A stretch of DNA of 5,582 nucleotides from a virus (Duplodnaviria > Heunggongvirae > Uroviricota > Caudoviricetes): the IMG/VR virus record IMGVR_UViG_2695420430_000001; one strand, written 5' to 3'. The first letter of the stretch is position 1. Each line of letters opens with the position of its first letter. Positions 1 through 5,582 of this stretch are shown piece after piece. The translations under genes and the position numbers were made by a program. The notes beneath the pieces are model-generated. The model made no database searches. It was given only the letters and a program-made list of their open reading frames with translations, and was not told the DNA's origin.

Positions 1-45
1 CGCCCGCTGACGGACTTCGGGGGAAAAACGAGTATTTTTAGTCAT
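1..45 (-). CDS. IS3-family transposase OrfA, N-terminal 15 codons only (partial, continues off-window)
   Basis: ATG at 45..43 on the minus strand, preceded by AGAGG (SD-like); the reading frame is open to position 1. Identity is by recollection of IS629 OrfA. Confidence 0.55.
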   Translation of the reverse strand, partial: MTKNTRFSPEVRQRA

Positions 46-99
46 CCTGTTTACCTCTTTCTCAGGGAGTTTAGTCTCCAGGATTTCCGGGGCGGTTCA
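1..99 (-). mobile_element. Terminus of an IS3-family insertion sequence (IS629/IS1203-like), including the terminal inverted repeat and the start of orfA; the element continues beyond the window start
   Basis: Seen in sequence: the minus strand from 99 downward reads TGAACCGCCCCGGAAATCCTGGAGACTAAACTCCCTGAGAAAGAGGTAAACAGG then ATG ACT AAA AAT ACT CGT TTT TCC CCC GAA GTC CGT CAG CGG GCG (MTKNTRFSPEVRQRA). From memory this matches the left end and OrfA N-terminus of IS629-type elements; the TG start is typical of IS3-family ends. Not verified against ISfinder. Confidence 0.6.
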
Positions 100-230
100 G
101 TACTGTAAAAGCGGTGCCAGTCGGCATACTCCGTGGATGACATCCCGGCAAGCATGGCACGCCAGTCGGGTCGCCCCATCTCACGCGCCAGTTTCAGGGC
201 AAAACTCAGCTCACCGTCGAACACTTTCCC
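100..230 (-). pseudogene. T: 5' portion of the T frame of the G-T tail assembly chaperone fusion, reached by -1 frameshift and truncated by the IS insertion
   Basis: After a -1 slip at GGGAAAG (224-230) the -1 frame reads GKVFDGELSFALKLAREMGRPDWRAMLAGMSSTEYADWHRFYST. It then runs straight into IS sequence at the 99/100 boundary and stops at a TAA at 53..51 inside the IS. The expected lambda T frame is about 140 codons; here only 44 phage-derived codons remain in the window. Confidence 0.6.
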
Positions 231-628
231 GCAGAAACAGGCTCTGCAGGCCCGGCGTCCTCTGTCTGTTCAGGGGCATTATTCACCACAAACTCATACA
301 TACCGGACAGCCGGTACACCACGTTTTCAGCATGAGAAATTGCCTCCGTGGGCCAGGTGGTAAGCACTTCCTGCTCAATTTGTTTAACGGCTTCATTCAT
401 GGACGGCATCTGCGTCTTCTGCGGATGGTTATGCCACAGGGACATCGCCACCAGAAACGCGCCGGTTCTGATGGCGTCTTCCACAGTAAACTTCCGATTG
501 CTGTCTGACTCCGCCTGTTCTGCCTGCCGTTTCATCAGGGCGAGATGCTCAATACGCTGCAGGGCTGACAGTTCAGAAAGCGTGACGGTCACACCGTTAT
601 GTTCAAATGATTCGGTTTTCAGGAACAT
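206..628 (-). CDS. G: Tail assembly chaperone gpG
   Basis: 140-aa ORF with ATG at 628..626 and a GGAGAG SD 8 nt upstream; TGA at 208..206. Position immediately after V and the internal slippery site match lambda G; the sequence resembles lambda gpG by recollection. Confidence 0.85.
   Translation of the reverse strand: MFLKTESFEHNGVTVTLSELSALQRIEHLALMKRQAEQAESDSNRKFTVEDAIRTGAFLVAMSLWHNHPQKTQMPSMNEAVKQIEQEVLTTWPTEAISHAENVVYRLSGMYEFVVNNAPEQTEDAGPAEPVSAGKCSTVS
224..230 (-). promoter_or_regulatory. Programmed -1 ribosomal frameshift slippery heptamer G GGA AAG (G to G-T)
   Basis: Minus strand reads GCG GGA AAG TGT TCG ACG GTG AGC TGA; the heptamer sits 6 codons before the G stop, and the -1 frame stays open beyond it. 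The G-T frameshift is established for lambda and for tail assembly chaperones generally. Confidence 0.7.
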
Positions 629-643
629 CTCTGACTCTCCGGA

Positions 644-1384
644 TTAACTGGCGGTGACGGTGATTTCTGCAACCGCAGCAAACTCACCATTACCGGATAC
701 GACCGGAATGTTGACCTTACCTGCAGCAACGCCATTCACGGTGATGGTCATACCACTGACCGACACGGTGGCTTTTGTTTTATCCGCTGACACCGCACGG
801 AAGCTCTTGTCGGTTGCGCCTTCCGGCTGGAAGGCCACGGTCAGCGTGGTGCTCTTCCCTTTCACTACGGAAGCGCTGGCTGGCGTCACGGTCATGCCGG
901 TTGCCGCTGTTACCGTGCTGCGATCTTCTGCCATCGACGGACGTCCCACATTGGTGACTTTCACCGTGCGGGTGATCACTTCCTTCGCCGTCACCGCCTT
1001 ACCGATACTGCTGACCCAGCCACGGAACACATCGACCGTGCCGTTCGGGAAGCGGATTTTATAGGCACGGGTATCGCCTTCATTAAACCACGCCAGCAGC
1101 GCCTGCTGCCCCTGCTCTCCGGGCATCCACGCCAGCGTGAAGCTGGTATCTCCGGCAGATTTCTGCCCCTGCCCGGTCGCGGTCCAGTCTGCATCTTCAT
1201 CATCGAGATAGCTGTCGTCATAGGACTCAGCGGTCATCTCGCCCGGCGTCAGATCCTTCACCTTAGCCAGTCGCTGCCAGTCATCGTCTGACAACGGGTT
1301 TGCATAAGCATCACCCTTGCCGTTGTAAACCCACAGAGTGGTACCGGCACCTTTTACCGGCTCAAGGGGATTTGGTGTTGCCAT
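644..1384 (-). CDS. V: Major tail tube protein gpV with C-terminal Ig-like (Big_2-type) domain
   Basis: 246-aa ORF with ATG at 1384..1382 and a GAGGA SD; the translation (..[24 protein letters not shown]..; C-terminal ..[29 protein letters not shown]) matches lambda gpV in length and motifs by recollection. Synteny is U-V-G. Confidence 0.92.
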
Positions 1385-1391
1385 ATCGTCC

Positions 1392-1787
1392 TCACATCTC
1401 GTATGTAATGGAATAAGTCAGATCTGCAGAACTCCATAACGCCATATCGTCATCACGACGATACTCATAGCCCTGCGTAACCATCGTGGTAATCAGTCCT
1501 GCCAGTGCCGGGATCGCGGTCATCGCCGGGTAAATCCGGCTTTCCATCCACTGATCGAGCTCTGAATCCGGTACCTGTGCCGGTAAAAACACCTCAATAT
1601 GCAGTGTGGCCCGCCAGGTATCTGCATCCAGCTCTTCACCGGTATACTCTGCATCCGTCAGATAAACCGCGATCGCAGGAAAATCCTCTTCGTCAAAAAC
1701 AACGGGGCGACCATCAAACAGCGTCGCCCCGTGTTCATGCTGCTCGAGTGCATCCAGCACTGCGGCACGAATGTCAGTGTGTTTCAT
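1392..1787 (-). CDS. U: Tail tube terminator protein gpU
   Basis: 131-aa ORF ([41 protein letters not shown]), the same length and motifs as lambda gpU by recollection. Its ATG (1787..1785) overlaps the Z stop (1786..1784) as ATGA, indicating translational coupling. Confidence 0.9.
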
Positions 1788-2359
1788 CGTTTTATCGCAA
1801 TCCTCAGTTGTTGTTTCAGCGCGTATGCCAGTTCTTTAGGCAGGCGTTCACGCCGGATACGGTCAACATTCTCATCAAATGCCTGTTTCAGTGGGGCCGC
1901 CATCGGGATTTTCACCACCTGAATGGGAAGGCGATTACGCTTTTTCCTTCCCTTGTCGTCATTGCCCTCCTTATATCTGGCCTGGGGAAGACGTTGCATA
2001 ACATGCCAGCGCCCATTATTTAATCGCTGGATAAATGCCCGCTGATAACGATGCTGACCGGCTTTGAGTATGCTGTTCGGACGACGCCCCAGCATTCTGA
2101 TCCCCAGCTTAATCACAGGGAGATCACCGCGGTTAACGATAATTCTGGCATTCGGATTTCTGACCGTCGCCCGTTTCAGTCTGGACCGTTCCTTTACCAG
2201 TTTCCGTCTCACCCTGGTTTCCCGGGCAACCTGTGACGAAGACTGATTAATCGCCGTTGTGGCCACGCGGTTAATGGTCATTGCAGAAGCAGCCGGAATG
2301 GCGTTTTTACGAACCCGGCTCAGATTGTCAATCGCCTGATCAAGCCCTTTTATCGCCAT
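1784..2359 (-). CDS. Z: Tail completion protein gpZ
   Basis: 191-aa ORF ([38 protein letters not shown]) resembling lambda gpZ by recollection; ATG at 2359..2357; located between FII and U as in lambda. Confidence 0.9.
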   Translation of the reverse strand: MAIKGLDQAIDNLSRVRKNAIPAASAMTINRVATTAINQSSSQVARETRVRRKLVKERSRLKRATVRNPNARIIVNRGDLPVIKLGIRMLGRRPNSILKAGQHRYQRAFIQRLNNGRWHVMQRLPQARYKEGNDDKGRKKRNRLPIQVVKIPMAAPLKQAFDENVDRIRRERLPKELAYALKQQLRIAIKR

Positions 2360-2373
2360 AATTCACCCTGCGT

Positions 2374-2727
2374 TTATCGTCGCCGGTTAACTGCGGGTGG
2401 TTGCCCACGGTTGAGCCAGAGATAACAGCTACCCCCGTCATCCGGAGAAACACGATCCACCCAGAATGTCTCACCATTAATGGTCAGCGTGTCACCACGC
2501 CGCACGGCACGAACCGTATCCGTCCGCACAAATAATGACGGGCTGCTTCCTTCAATACGGACCCCGCTACCGGCAAACCCCAGCGACTCCGGATCGTCAA
2601 AAACCCCCTGAACTTCGCTGCCACACTGTGCCCCCGAGGTGAACTGCGCACAGAGCCCCATCACTTCAACAATCGTTCTGTCCACCCCGGCAAGGGCAGC
2701 ATCAAAGGAATTCTCAAAATCACGCAT
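2374..2727 (-). CDS. FII: Head-tail joining (head completion) protein gpFII
   Basis: 117-aa ORF (..GVFDDPESLGFAGSGVRIEGSSPSLFVRTD..WVDRVSPDDGGSCYLWLNRGQPPAVNRRR) with the same length and conserved C-terminus as lambda gpFII by recollection. Its start ATG (2727..2725) lies 8 nt inside the 3' end of FI. Confidence 0.9.
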   Translation of the reverse strand: MRDFENSFDAALAGVDRTIVEVMGLCAQFTSGAQCGSEVQGVFDDPESLGFAGSGVRIEGSSPSLFVRTDTVRAVRRGDTLTINGETFWVDRVSPDDGGSCYLWLNRGQPPAVNRRR

Positions 2728-3088
2728 AAACGGCCATTCCGCTCCTGACCATGTCTTTTGCCACTGAGGGGGGCATCAGAATTACTCTGCCAGCATCAAC
2801 ATGCTCAACAGGCTCACCTGTTTCATCGTCAACACCGCACAGGTAAAAACACTTCAGAAGCCTGATACGTTCCAGAATACCAACGTCATCCTCACCGGTG
2901 TGCCTGCATGCCTGCTCATGAACGGTATCATCAACATCTGCGATTTCATTTTCCGAGGCGCAAACCTCCTCTTCCCACTCTGCCACACGCTGTGCGATAT
3001 CCGCAGCACTCCCCGACATATCCGCCTCGCGCCCCAGCAGACCAGCCAGTTCACGAAGACGTTTCTGATTTTCTTCTTTTGTTGCCAT
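2720..3088 (-). CDS. FI: DNA packaging / head assembly protein gpFI-like
   Basis: The track ORF 2720..3136 begins at a GTG inside the upstream hairpin. The first ATG with a good SD (AGGGAG, 6-nt spacer) is at 3088..3086, giving 122 aa starting MATKEENQKRLRELAGLLGREADMSG..; the helical N-terminus, acidic linker and position between E and FII match lambda FI. Sequence similarity to lambda FI is weak and judged from memory. Confidence 0.7.
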   Translation of the reverse strand: MATKEENQKRLRELAGLLGREADMSGSAADIAQRVAEWEEEVCASENEIADVDDTVHEQACRHTGEDDVGILERIRLLKCFYLCGVDDETGEPVEHVDAGRVILMPPSVAKDMVRSGMAVYA

Positions 3089-3103
3089 ATCCAGCTCCCT
3101 GTG

Positions 3104-3132
3104 AAAAAAACACGGGGGCATTTCGCCCCCGC
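3104..3132 (-). terminator. Intrinsic-terminator-like stem-loop plus U7 tract between E and FI
   Basis: Minus strand reads CGGGGGC GAAAT GCCCCCG TG TTTTTTT: a 7-bp G/C stem (3131-3125 pairing with 3119-3113), a 5-nt loop, then seven T residues at 3110-3104. It starts 8 nt after the E stop and ends 15 nt before the FI start. Confidence 0.65.
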
Positions 3133-3139
3133 TCACGGA

Positions 3140-4168
3140 TTATTTCACCTGTACCACCACAAACTCATCCGGATCCGGCAGCACCATCAGCGGCGCGGAC
3201 TGCGTCATGGTGAATTCACAGGACGGATCGCCCACGGTCAGCCAGTGTTTCGGGTAACGGGAAGAAGCCACCACTCCTTCAGACAACGCCTGTGCATCCT
3301 TAATGGCTCCATAGCAACGAATCCCCTCTGCTGCCGTATTCCCCAGCACCAGCGTGCCCTCCGGCAGATAACGTTTTTCGGTACCGTCCTCTGCCACATA
3401 AGACGTTTTCGCTACCACAATGGCCAGATCGCCGTAATACCCCTTGAAGGATACCACTGCGCCCAGATCTTTCACTGCCGTTTCGAGTTGTGAATTTGAG
3501 CCGCGACGGGTATCCATTTTTTCGCGGAAAAGCTTAAAGCCATTCAGCAGACGCCAGACGGTACCGTCCATAATGGCAATATTCACAAGACCACTGGCCT
3601 GATCACAGAAAAGGTCGATATCATATGTCGGGTCGAACGTGTCACGATCCTGTTTTGACCACTCCTTACCGCTACCTTGTATGATGTTATTCTTCGTCGA
3701 TCGGCCAAAATCGACTTCAATTTTCTCGAACTGGTCTCCTTCCATCGTATATTTGCCATACAGCACGGCATTCACCGCCTGCATTTCTTCCACCTGCACA
3801 ATAGCGTGCTCTTCCTGTTTGAGGTTATCAGTGATGATACGCAGACGACGGTAGGCCGGGTCGTTCAGCTGAGCCGGATCTTCACCGGGAAGGCGCTCAA
3901 CCGCCTGCTGGTAATTAAATTCGTGTTTCGGCTTGACGTAGCCCGGACGCAACACGCGGGTTTCACCACCACGATGGCGCAGCACTTTTCCTTCAACGAT
4001 CGGGGAGACATAGGCCGCCACCGGCGTTTTTCCGGTAATTTTGTCCAGCATCACCTCTTCGGTGTGGAAATTCACCGTACGGCGGAAAAACAGCTCCAGA
4101 AATAGCGCACGGAATTTAACTTTTTGTTCGGTATAACCGAGTAACTGGCGGGTCGTAAACAATCCCAT
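3140..4168 (-). CDS. E: Major capsid protein gpE (lambda E family)
   Basis: 342-aa ORF with ATG at 4168..4166 and an AGGA SD; the translation shares long motifs with lambda gpE by recollection (..YVSPIV.G.V...GG....PGYVKPKHE..; ..AIVQVEEMQAVNAVLYGKYTM..; ..TRRGSNSQLETAVKDLG..; ..MTQSAPLMVLPDPDEFVVVQ..) and the same length. Confidence 0.95.
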   Translation of the reverse strand: MGLFTTRQLLGYTEQKVKFRALFLELFFRRTVNFHTEEVMLDKITGKTPVAAYVSPIVEGKVLRHRGGETRVLRPGYVKPKHEFNYQQAVERLPGEDPAQLNDPAYRRLRIITDNLKQEEHAIVQVEEMQAVNAVLYGKYTMEGDQFEKIEVDFGRSTKNNIIQGSGKEWSKQDRDTFDPTYDIDLFCDQASGLVNIAIMDGTVWRLLNGFKLFREKMDTRRGSNSQLETAVKDLGAVVSFKGYYGDLAIVVAKTSYVAEDGTEKRYLPEGTLVLGNTAAEGIRCYGAIKDAQALSEGVVASSRYPKHWLTVGDPSCEFTMTQSAPLMVLPDPDEFVVVQVK

Positions 4169-4196
4169 AAATCAGTTCCTTTCATTCAGAAATCAG

Positions 4197-4218
4197 TCAG
4201 GCCACCATGGTGGCCTGA
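4197..4218. repeat. Perfect 22-bp palindrome TCAGGCCACCATGGTGGCCTGA in the D-E intergenic region
   Basis: Seen in sequence: the 22-mer equals its own reverse complement, centred on CCATGG. It lies 7 nt after the D stop and 28 nt before the E start. No U-tract follows on the transcribed strand. Confidence 0.8.
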
Positions 4219-4225
4219 TAACGTG

Positions 4226-4573
4226 TTACGGCAGAGCCGCGTGACTCAGGGCTGTGCCGGCAAAGGCATTTGCCTTTTTGTGTTCATCCACACTGTCAGG
4301 CCAGCGGATTGCCTCCGTCGCAAAGGTCCCCGACTTGTAATAGGTCAGCACCGTCTCTGTGCCTTCAAGCGGCAGTACCAGTATGCCAACCGCACTACCG
4401 GCTTTCTGTCCATCCCAGACCACCAGTTTCCCGGTGGCTTCATCCAGCATCAGGGGCGTCAGAGCCGGTGTTGCAGAAGAAATCCCGCTGCTGCCTGTGG
4501 CGGTATGAGCCGGATCACTACCAGCAAAAATACGTACTTCCGCACGCTGTTCAGTGATGGTTTTCGTCACCAT
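4226..4573 (-). CDS. D: Head decoration protein gpD family
   Basis: 115-aa ORF with ATG at 4573..4571 and a GAGG SD; shares motifs with lambda gpD by recollection (SDPAHTAT, TPLMLD, KLVxWDG, AVGIL, YKSGTF, AFAGTA). Located between C and E as in lambda. Confidence 0.85.
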   Translation of the reverse strand: MVTKTITEQRAEVRIFAGSDPAHTATGSSGISSATPALTPLMLDEATGKLVVWDGQKAGSAVGILVLPLEGTETVLTYYKSGTFATEAIRWPDSVDEHKKANAFAGTALSHAALP

Positions 4574-4609
4574 TTTGTTAAAACCTCATATTGATGGTCA
4601 GCACTGACT

Positions 4610-5212
4610 TCATGGCATGGCCATGAGCATTTTCACGTCCGCATCACCGTCTGCTGACGTCTGTGACACGCCACCCCGCACCGCTGCCGGTGAATGATTC
4701 GCCATGAAATGTTCAAACAGGGCGGTTGTGGATGCAGAGACCGGTTCGGCCTTACCTGATCCCGCAGCCAGCACAGCCCGGGCGTTCTCCACGGTCATTC
4801 CCGGGCAGGCCGCCAGTTTTTCAGCCTGCGCTTCTGCCCCTTTTGCCTCATCCAGGGCCATGATCTGATCACGAAGTGAGGGCCCGGCATCCGCCAGTGG
4901 TGCAGCCGCCAGGATCGGGCGGGCTTTTTCCACCGTCATCTCCGGCATCGCCGCCAGCGTTGCCGCCAGTTGTTCACGACCGTTCGCTTCTTCACACGCC
5001 ATAATGCGATCGGCTTCACTCTGCGCGGATGCCACCGGCTGCTGCGGTGCCGCCGCGGCCAGAATCGCCCGGGCCTGTTCAATGCTCATGCCCTGTTGTC
5101 CTGCCAGCATCGTGGCAAGCTGTTCACGTCCTTTCGCTTCCTGACACGTCAGGATCCCCATCACTCGCTGGTTCTCCTGCGCGGCAGCTTCCGTTGCAGT
5201 TAATTGCGGCAT
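4610..5212 (-). CDS. Candidate nested in-frame scaffold protein (Nu3-like) initiated inside C
   Basis: In-frame ATG at 5212..5210 (residue M116 of the track ORF) is preceded by AGAGGAGG with a 4-nt spacer, a strong SD for a site inside a coding region. It would yield a 200-aa product coextensive with the repeat-containing C-terminus of C. In lambda, Nu3 is made from an in-frame internal start in C (established knowledge); applying that here is inference. Confidence 0.4.
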   Translation of the reverse strand: MPQLTATEAAAQENQRVMGILTCQEAKGREQLATMLAGQQGMSIEQARAILAAAAPQQPVASAQSEADRIMACEEANGREQLAATLAAMPEMTVEKARPILAAAPLADAGPSLRDQIMALDEAKGAEAQAEKLAACPGMTVENARAVLAAGSGKAEPVSASTTALFEHFMANHSPAAVRGGVSQTSADGDADVKMLMAMP

Positions 5213-5582
5213 AGTGCCTCCTCTGACATTACTGTTCAGCGCCGTGGCCATCACACTGATGGCATCCGACGCATTGATTAATTCATCCGCCAGCCCGGCC
5301 TCAATGCCGGACTGACCTTCAAAAACGGCGGCCTCTGTTCCCGTGACCGCATCCACAGACAACCCGGTATACATCGCCACTTTTTCGGCAAACATCCGGT
5401 GCGCCGCATCAATCCGCTGCTGCATATCCTGGCGAACCTCTGCCGGCAACGCTTCAAACTGATTGCCATCCACCTTGTGCGCCCCGGCATAAATCAGCGT
5501 GATATCCACACCGGCCTGCGCCAGATGACCGGCATAGCTGACATGGCTCATCATCACGCCAATGGAGCCGATACGGGATGTC
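4610..5582 (-). CDS. C: Prohead protease / scaffold gpC-like (S49 SppA-like peptidase C-terminal part plus scaffold region); 5' end lies outside the window
   Basis: The reading frame is open from the window edge (5582) to TGA at 4612..4610, with no stop in the 8 codons upstream of the track start; the track start at 5557 is a GTG and not the true start. The N-terminal part in the window (..GSIGVMMSHVSYAGHLAQAGVDITLIYAGAHKVDGN..EAAVFEGQSGIEAGLADEL..) resembles the lambda C / SppA protease family by recollection. Confidence 0.85.
   Translation of the reverse strand, partial: TSRIGSIGVMMSHVSYAGHLAQAGVDITLIYAGAHKVDGNQFEALPAEVRQDMQQRIDAAHRMFAEKVAMYTGLSVDAVTGTEAAVFEGQSGIEAGLADELINASDAISVMATALNSNVRGGTMPQLTATEAAAQENQRVMGILTCQEAKGREQLATMLAGQQGMSIEQARAILAAAAPQQPVASAQSEADRIMACEEANGREQLAATLAAMPEMTVEKARPILAAAPLADAGPSLRDQIMALDEAKGAEAQAEKLAACPGMTVENARAVLAAGSGKAEPVSASTTALFEHFMANHSPAAVRGGVSQTSADGDADVKMLMAMP
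4742..5167 (-). repeat. Three tandem degenerate copies of a ~42-codon module within the scaffold region of C
   Basis: Protein copies: RVMGILTCQEAKGREQLATMLAGQQGMSIEQARAILAAAAP / RIMACEEANGREQLAATLAAMPEMTVEKARPILAAAPL / QIMALDEAKGAEAQAEKLAACPGMTVENARAVLAAGSG. Copies 1 and 2 are also similar at the DNA level (for example 5113-5150 versus 4958-5000, about 75% identity by eye). Confidence 0.7.

What the first reader, a model, noticed from the sequence alone, without database searches (positions are those of the whole stretch)
1..230. IS629-like insertion sequence interrupts the T frame of the G-T tail assembly chaperone
The -1 frame downstream of the GGGAAAG slippery site encodes 44 T-like codons and then runs directly into an IS3-family terminus at 99/100 (TGAACCGCCCC... 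followed by MTKNTRFSPEVRQRA). The frameshift product would be a truncated fusion ending at a stop inside the IS. In lambda, gpGT is required for tail tube assembly around the tape measure protein, so this prophage is probably tail-defective or cryptic unless the fragment still works. The IS is co-oriented with the late operon.
Basis: partly seen in the sequence, partly recalled or inferred. Interest (0 to 1): 0.7.

Follow-up and report, generated by a model that had tools for sequence, protein, structure and literature searches.

The report
IS629/IS1203 insertion truncating lambda-type gene T
A common E. coli jumping gene (IS629/IS1203) has landed inside the tail-assembly chaperone gene of a lambda-like prophage, cutting off most of the T part of the G-T frameshift protein; this is a real but ordinary kind of prophage damage.

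Summary
Window 628-206 encodes a gpG 140/140 identical to lambda gpG. The only GGGAAAG heptamer on that strand is at 230-224. The -1 frame gives 42 T residues identical to lambda gpT. At window 100|99 the sequence switches to the first 99 nt of IS1203/IS629, which are 99/99 identical to annotated copies. The IS orfA ATG is at window 45, which is IS position 55 as in a full 1,310-bp copy. The frameshift product would be 192 aa (135 G + 42 T + 15 IS-coded residues, stop TAA at 53-51) instead of 279 aa. It keeps only 14 of the 76 residues of the Pfam T domain. Window 100-5582 is 100% identical to intact prophages in three complete E. coli genomes, where T continues and H-M-L-K-I-J follow. None of 5,426 complete genomes has this junction, so the event is recent and private. 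The window ends inside the IS, so the far IS end, the target duplication and the rest of the tail genes cannot be seen. A simple insertion is most likely, but an IS-bounded deletion or rearrangement is not excluded. Loss of tail assembly is inferred, and co-resident prophages could complement it. This is a known phenomenon of low interest.

The parts
206..628 (-). Gene G (tail assembly chaperone gpG, 140 aa), intact
   Evidence: 140/140 aa identical to lambda gpG. Pfam PF06894 Phage_TAC_2, E = 2.4e-61.
224..230 (-). GGGAAAG slippery heptamer for the -1 programmed frameshift G->G-T
   Evidence: The only GGGAAAG on the minus strand. It sits in the G GGA AAG register of the G frame, identical to lambda in sequence and position. 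The lambda slippery sequence is listed in PMC3296357.
100..225 (-). Remnant of the T frame: 42 T-specific codons (VFDG...HRFYST) after the frameshift
   Evidence: The fusion prefix of 177 aa is 177/177 identical to lambda gpGT and to the intact relative L003. Intact T is 144 codons.
99..100 (-). Junction between phage DNA (window 100) and the first base of the IS (window 99)
   Evidence: All alignments to lambda and to intact prophages end at window 100. IS identity begins at window 99. The sequence is CAGTAC|TGAACCG against intact CAGTACCCATT.
1..99 (-). First 99 nt of IS1203/IS629 (left inverted repeat, leader, and the first 15 codons of orfA from the ATG at window 45-43)
   Evidence: 99/99 identity to annotated IS1203 copies. 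Identical to L002 1601-1699, the start of a 1,310-bp copy whose transposase CDS starts at IS position 55. Translation is MTKNTRFSPEVRQRA.
51..53 (-). TAA stop that ends the truncated G-T'-IS fusion (192 aa); 5 nt upstream of the orfA ATG
644..1384 (-). Gene V (major tail protein), upstream neighbour that fixes the G-T context
   Evidence: 233/246 aa identical to lambda gpV. Annotated as a phage tail protein in intact relatives.

Best explanation
A copy of IS1203/IS629 (IS3 family) transposed into the T reading frame of a lambda-type prophage, between T codons 42 and 43, in the same orientation as the late operon. Gene G and the GGGAAAG frameshift site are untouched, so gpG is still made. Ribosomes that shift to -1 now make a 192-aa product: 135 G-frame residues, 42 T residues and 15 residues read from the IS left end. 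This product lacks 102 of the 144 T codons, including nearly all of the conserved T domain. In lambda that domain is the part of gpGT reported to recruit the major tail protein gpV to the gpH/gpG complex. The prophage on its own is therefore expected to make heads but no functional tails. Shown: the IS identity, the exact junction, the truncated frame, and intact relatives without the IS. Inferred: that the rest of the IS, a 3-4 bp target duplication (TAC or GTAC), the rest of T and genes H-J follow beyond the window; and the tail-less phenotype.
For: The IS piece is 99/99 identical to annotated IS1203 copies and to the first 99 nt of a full 1,310-bp copy that has its own 3-bp duplication. The orfA ATG is at the same offset, position 55. 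The break falls exactly at the first base of the terminal inverted repeat TGAACCGCCCC, as expected for transposition and not for a random assembly error. G is 140/140 identical to lambda, and the first 177 fusion residues are 177/177 identical. Window 100-5582 is 100% identical to prophages in three complete genomes with an intact 144-codon T followed by H, M, L, K, I, J. Lambda and related phages in the phage collection also continue past the break. Pfam PF06223 Phage_tail_T maps to gpGT 164-239 in the intact protein and is no longer detected in the truncated product. Both gpG and gpGT are needed for lambda growth (PMC3296357). The T domain recruits the major tail protein, and a T knockout in TP901-1 gives capsids without tails (PMC4493119). 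IS629 splitting prophage genes is a documented, common event (PMC4587872; PMC2669165).
Against: The window ends 99 nt into the IS, so the far end of the IS, the target duplication and the downstream tail genes are not seen. Neither junction was found in any public collection searched, and the 57-aa truncated T ORF is not on record. The structure therefore cannot be completed from related sequences. No experiment shows that the 42-residue T stub is inactive. Lambda-type G-T modules occur in 3,700 of 5,426 complete E. coli genomes, with a median of 2 per genome that has any, so a co-resident prophage could supply gpGT in trans or repair the gene by recombination (PMC2669165).
Confidence: 0.8

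Rival explanations
1. The IS marks the edge of a larger rearrangement and not a simple insertion. After an IS629 insertion in T, either an adjacent deletion or homologous recombination between two IS629 copies removed or relocated the rest of T and the distal tail genes. Under this reading the prophage is a truncated remnant that ends at the IS.
For: The window shows only one IS end. IS1203/IS629 is multicopy in many E. coli genomes, up to the 40-piece reporting limit per record, which gives substrates for recombination. The predicted far junction was not found in viral, genome or metagenome collections. From general knowledge, not read here (Ooka et al. 2009 was not held), IS629-associated deletions are described in O157.
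Against: The far-junction searches would also be negative for a private simple insertion, because the near junction is absent from the same collections. The phage part is 100% identical over 5,483 bp to intact prophages, which points to a very recent event with little time for secondary decay. In published surveys, simple insertions are the commonly reported outcome (PMC4587872).
Confidence: 0.15
2. The junction is an assembly artefact: a chimeric join of a phage contig to a repeat fragment at a contig end. In that case no IS sits in T in the real genome.
For: The IS piece is exactly 99 nt long and sits at the very edge of the window. That equals a commonly used de Bruijn k-mer length (inference), so the window start is probably an assembly break in a repeat.
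Against: The switch occurs at precisely the first nucleotide of the IS terminal inverted repeat. That is what true transposition produces, and a random misjoin would rarely do so. A k-length overhang into a repeat is the normal signature of a genuine unique-to-repeat adjacency in graph assemblers, not of a chimera.
Confidence: 0.03
3. The insertion is real but functionally silent for the phage. The truncated G-T' product retains enough activity, or gpGT is supplied by a co-resident lambdoid prophage, so tailed particles still form.
For: Near-identical G-T modules are frequent and often multiple per genome. Defective O157 prophages are released and transferred through inter-prophage interactions (PMC2669165).
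Against: Only 14 of the 76 residues of the conserved T domain remain, and the domain is no longer detectable. T knockouts abolish tails in TP901-1, and gpGT is required in lambda. Complementation in trans does not make the prophage itself competent. A 1.3-kb insert may also affect expression of the downstream genes H-J (inference).
Confidence: 0.1

Closest known systems
IS629 / IS1203 (IS3 family) insertions in lambdoid prophages of E. coli, e.g. in Stx2a phages and Sakai prophages
   Same: The same element: 99/99 nt identical to annotated IS1203 copies, the same left terminus TGAACCGCCCC, and orfA starting at position 55. It is the same kind of event, an IS splitting a phage gene (PMC4587872; PMC2669165).
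   Different: This target site, T codon 42/43 of a lambda-type G-T module, was not found in any of 5,426 complete E. coli genomes or in the other collections. Only the left end of the element is visible here.
Phage lambda G / G-T tail assembly chaperone with -1 programmed frameshift
   Same: gpG is 140/140 identical. The slippery site GGGAAAG is identical in sequence and register. The first 42 T codons are identical. V lies immediately upstream.
   Different: The T frame is cut after codon 42 and ends 15 codons later inside the IS. The product is 192 aa against 279 aa and lacks the Pfam Phage_tail_T domain.
Intact lambda-like prophages next to the bio operon (ybhB-bioA) in E. coli S1-IND-01-A, B19374 and Z1323HEC0108
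   Same: 100% nucleotide identity over window 100-5582, with the same gene order from the S49 peptidase to G-T.
   Different: They carry an uninterrupted T (144 codons) followed by H, M, L, K, I, J, lom and tail-fibre genes. There is no IS at this site.

Membership tests
IS1203/IS629 (IS3 family insertion sequence) | Nucleotide identity to reference copies of the element | tested here: met
   99/99 nt identical to many copies annotated 'IS3-like element IS1203 family transposase'. Identical to positions 1-99 of a full 1,310-bp copy.
IS1203/IS629 (IS3 family insertion sequence) | Terminal inverted repeat beginning 5'-TG...; the junction with host DNA falls exactly at the IR tip | tested here: met
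   The left end TGAACCGCCCC starts at window 99, and phage homology stops at window 100. In the reference copy, IRL and IRR match at 13 of the first 13 bases. The right end is outside the window.
IS1203/IS629 (IS3 family insertion sequence) | orfA/orfB transposase with a programmed -1 frameshift and a DDE catalytic domain | not testable with these tools
   Only the first 15 codons of orfA (MTKNTRFSPEVRQRA) are in the window. The reference copy is annotated with a programmed frameshift.
IS1203/IS629 (IS3 family insertion sequence) | Short (3-4 bp) target site duplication flanking the element | not testable with these tools
   The far end is not in the window. The predicted far junction was not found in viral, genome or metagenome collections. 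The reference copy shows a 3-bp AAG duplication.
Lambda-type tail assembly chaperone G/G-T | G ORF of the Phage_TAC_2 family located just downstream of the major tail gene V | tested here: met
   PF06894, E = 2.4e-61. 140/140 aa identical to lambda gpG. V lies upstream at 644-1384.
Lambda-type tail assembly chaperone G/G-T | Slippery heptamer near the 3' end of G with an open -1 frame | tested here: met
   GGGAAAG at 230-224 in the G GGA AAG register. The -1 frame stays open for 57 codons.
Lambda-type tail assembly chaperone G/G-T | The -1 frame encodes a complete T domain (Pfam PF06223) and ends at the start of the tape measure gene H | tested here: not met
   PF06223 is found at residues 164-239 of intact gpGT but not in the window's 192-aa product, which diverges after residue 177. 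H is not in the window. The locus is therefore a disrupted member, not an intact one.

The most novel reading that the evidence does not exclude
The insertion puts a sense-oriented IS629 inside the very strongly transcribed, antiterminated late operon, and the truncated G-T' frame stops only 5 nt before the orfA ATG. Prophage induction could then drive a burst of IS629 transposase synthesis by read-through transcription and termination-reinitiation, coupling transposition to the SOS/lytic switch. Alternatively, the G-T'-IS fusion could act as a dominant-negative chaperone that poisons tail assembly of co-resident lambdoid phages. Neither idea is supported by any direct evidence here. The junction RNA shows no special structure (z = 0.46).
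Probability: 0.04. Interest if true: 0.45.

Novelty: already known. Interest (0 to 1): 0.1.

Why it matters
The finding matters mainly for annotation. It explains why a gene caller would report a short, odd 'T' ORF and a contig break at this point. It marks this prophage copy as probably unable to build tails on its own. It also gives a strain-specific IS629 insertion site that could serve as a typing or lineage marker. It adds one more example to the well-documented role of IS629 in inactivating and diversifying lambdoid prophages. It does not open a new biological question.

Tried and rejected
(1) I looked for the same junction elsewhere. A 200-bp junction query against 5,426 complete E. coli genomes gave 0 places with >=80% coverage. 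Exact-pattern scans of viral, genome and metagenome contigs gave 0 hits.

(2) I looked for the predicted far junction (IS right end + 2-5 nt + CCATTATTTTCATG...). It gave 0 hits in viral, genome and metagenome contigs. Note that genome contigs holds one genome per species, so it has little power for a strain-level E. coli allele.

(3) An exact look-up of the 57-aa truncated T ORF found nothing on record, so the source assembly could not be traced.

(4) I tried to read the primary papers on gpGT domain function (PMC3907469, PMC3762263) and on IS629 polymorphisms (PMC2765283). None is held, so I relied on citing papers.

(5) I searched for a solved structure of gpT. Only spurious low-complexity matches to designed WD40 proteins came back.

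(6) I folded the junction RNA to look for a structure sequestering or exposing the orfA start. The result was not different from shuffles.

(7) I considered that T might naturally end near window 100 in some relatives. This is rejected, because lambda and all close relatives continue for 102 more codons.

(8) I considered a random chimeric assembly. This is judged unlikely, because the break coincides with the first base of the IS inverted repeat.

Full report
Orientation. All genes in the window are on the minus strand. Read that way, the window holds the late operon of a lambda-like prophage. It runs from the 3' two-thirds of the S49 peptidase/scaffold gene (cut by the window end at 5582) through D, E, FI, FII, Z, U, V and G to the start of T. 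It ends at window position 1. The finding concerns the last 230 bases of that strand.

Observation check. Gene G is window 628-206, and its product is 140/140 identical to lambda gpG. The only GGGAAAG on the minus strand is at 230-224, in the same G GGA AAG register as in lambda. Translating the -1 frame from there gives GK, then 42 residues (VFDGELSFALKLAREMGRPDWRAMLAGMSSTEYADWHRFYST), then EPPRKSWRLNSLRKR and a TAA stop at window 53-51. From window 99 downwards the strand reads TGAACCGCCCCGGAAATCC..., and window 45-1 translates to MTKNTRFSPEVRQRA.

Identity of the 99-base piece. Against 5,426 complete E. coli genomes, the piece is 99/99 identical (E = 8e-44) to many loci annotated 'IS3-like element IS1203 family transposase'; 1,338 records have a match at >=99%. 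In one full copy (O157:H7 PV15-279, locus L002) the element is 1,310 bp, splits espY2 and carries a 3-bp AAG duplication. Its transposase CDS, annotated with a programmed frameshift, starts at IS position 55. The window's piece equals positions 1-99 of that copy, and its ATG is at the same offset. So the piece is the left inverted repeat, the leader and the first 15 codons of orfA of IS1203. To my knowledge IS1203 is treated as the same element as IS629. It is co-oriented with G/T.

The junction. Alignments of window 1-700 to E. coli genomes and to the phage collection, lambda itself included, all stop at window 100. The G-T' segment is 98.8% identical to lambda at the DNA level, with seven silent differences. 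In lambda and in intact relatives the sequence continues CAGTAC-CCATTATTTTCATG (S T H Y F H D V ...), whereas the window continues CAGTAC-TGAACCGCC. The boundary is therefore unambiguous and coincides with the first base of the IS terminal repeat. That is what transposition produces, and it argues against a random misassembly.

Intact relatives. Window 100-5582 is 100% identical over all 5,483 bases to prophages in three complete genomes: S1-IND-01-A, B19374 and Z1323HEC0108. In S1-IND-01-A the prophage sits next to ybhB-bioA. It has a complete set of lambda-type genes, including a 144-codon T followed by H, M, L, K, I, J, lom and tail-fibre genes. No complete genome has the IS at this site; a 200-bp junction query gave zero places covering >=80%. 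The junction is also absent from the viral, species-representative genome and metagenome collections. The insertion is thus a recent, private event on an otherwise unaltered prophage.

Consequence for the protein. The intact frameshift product is 279 aa (135 + 144). The window's product is 192 aa: 135 G-frame residues, 42 T residues and 15 residues read from the IS end. In intact gpGT, Pfam places Phage_TAC_2 at residues 1-125 and Phage_tail_T at residues 164-239. The truncated product scores only for Phage_TAC_2, because it keeps 14 of the 76 T-domain residues. Published work states that lambda needs both gpG and gpGT (PMC3296357). It also states that gpGT binds the tape measure protein through its G part and recruits the major tail protein through its T part, and that a T knockout in phage TP901-1 yields capsids without tails (PMC4493119, summarising Xu, Hendrix and Duda). 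I could not read the Xu papers directly. The inference that this prophage cannot assemble tails by itself is therefore well grounded, but it remains an inference. A 1.3-kb insert could also disturb expression of H-J. I have no data on that.

What cannot be seen. The window ends 99 nt into the IS. The far IS end, the expected TAC or GTAC duplication, the rest of T and the distal tail genes are outside it. Scans for the predicted far junction found nothing, and the truncated 57-aa ORF is not on record. These negatives carry little weight, because the near junction is equally absent from those collections. The IS piece is exactly 99 nt long, which equals a k-mer size commonly used by de Bruijn graph assemblers. 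This suggests (inference) that the window start is a contig break in a multicopy repeat. That would explain why the far side is missing without implying that it is absent from the genome. I rate a simple insertion as most likely (about 0.8), an IS-bounded deletion or rearrangement at about 0.15, and an assembly chimera at a few per cent.

Qualification of 'defective'. Lambda-type G-T modules at megablast-level similarity occur in 3,700 of 5,426 complete E. coli genomes, with a median of two per genome that has any. Asadulghani et al. showed that IS-damaged and otherwise defective O157 prophages can still be induced, packaged and transferred through interactions with co-resident prophages (PMC2669165). 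A tail defect in cis therefore does not mean that the element is inert.

Comparison with what is known, and novelty. IS629 insertions that split genes of lambdoid prophages are well documented and are described as a main driver of within-type phage diversity (PMC4587872; PMC2669165). The IS, the target gene and the type of event are all known. Only the particular insertion site appears unreported in the collections searched. I classify the finding as already known in kind and of low interest (0.1). Its value lies in annotation and strain typing.

The most novel reading not excluded is that the sense-oriented IS inside the antiterminated late operon, with the fusion stop 5 nt before the orfA ATG, couples transposase expression to prophage induction. 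A second such reading is that the fusion is a dominant-negative chaperone. Nothing here supports either one. The junction RNA fold is no different from shuffles.

Passing observations. The window is mosaic relative to lambda: the tail genes are near-identical while the head genes are only 66-75% identical at the DNA level, and FI is unrelated. The S49 peptidase/scaffold protein has three internal protein repeats of about 45 aa, with no DNA-level tandem repeat. Terminator-like hairpins follow D and E, and lambda has equivalents.

Noticed in passing
window 100-5582 (minus strand): The window is mosaic relative to lambda. The Z'-U-V-G-T' part (window 1927-100) is about 90% identical at the DNA level (G 140/140 aa, V 233/246 aa). 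The head genes are only 66-75% identical at the DNA level (E 60% aa, D 53% aa), and FI shows no detectable similarity to lambda FI.
   Followed up: partly
window 4610-5250 (minus strand; S49 peptidase/scaffold gene, cut by the window end at 5582): The C-terminal (Nu3-like scaffold) part contains three protein-level repeats of about 45 aa, each with the pattern ...IM..(C/D)EA.G.E.LA..LA....M..E.AR..LAA... Tandem Repeats Finder reports no DNA-level repeat. The intact homologue is 501 aa against 439 aa in lambda, so the repeats may account for the extra length.
   Followed up: partly
window 3132-3112 and 4218-4197 (minus strand): Strong GC-rich hairpins followed by T-runs (terminator-like) lie immediately after the major capsid gene E and after the decoration gene D. 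Lambda has equivalent hairpins at the same intergenic positions, so this is a conserved, ordinary feature of such late operons, possibly for mRNA stability.
   Followed up: partly
window 1-99: The IS fragment at the window edge is exactly 99 nt long, which equals a de Bruijn k-mer size commonly used in short-read assemblers. The window start is therefore probably a contig break in a multicopy repeat and not a biological end.
   Followed up: no
window 43-53 (minus strand): The stop codon of the truncated G-T'-IS fusion (TAA, 53-51) lies 5 nt upstream of the IS orfA ATG (45-43), with the orfA Shine-Dalgarno-like AAGAGG inside the fusion frame. This could allow termination-reinitiation on late-operon read-through transcripts. 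The RNA fold of the junction is unremarkable (z = 0.46).
   Followed up: partly
window 2720-3136 (minus strand): The mechanical ORF list starts FI at a GTG (138 aa). The identical gene in the intact relative is annotated as 369 nt (122 aa), starting at MATKEENQ... (window about 3088). The longer ORF overlaps the terminator-like hairpin after E and is probably not the real start.
   Followed up: no
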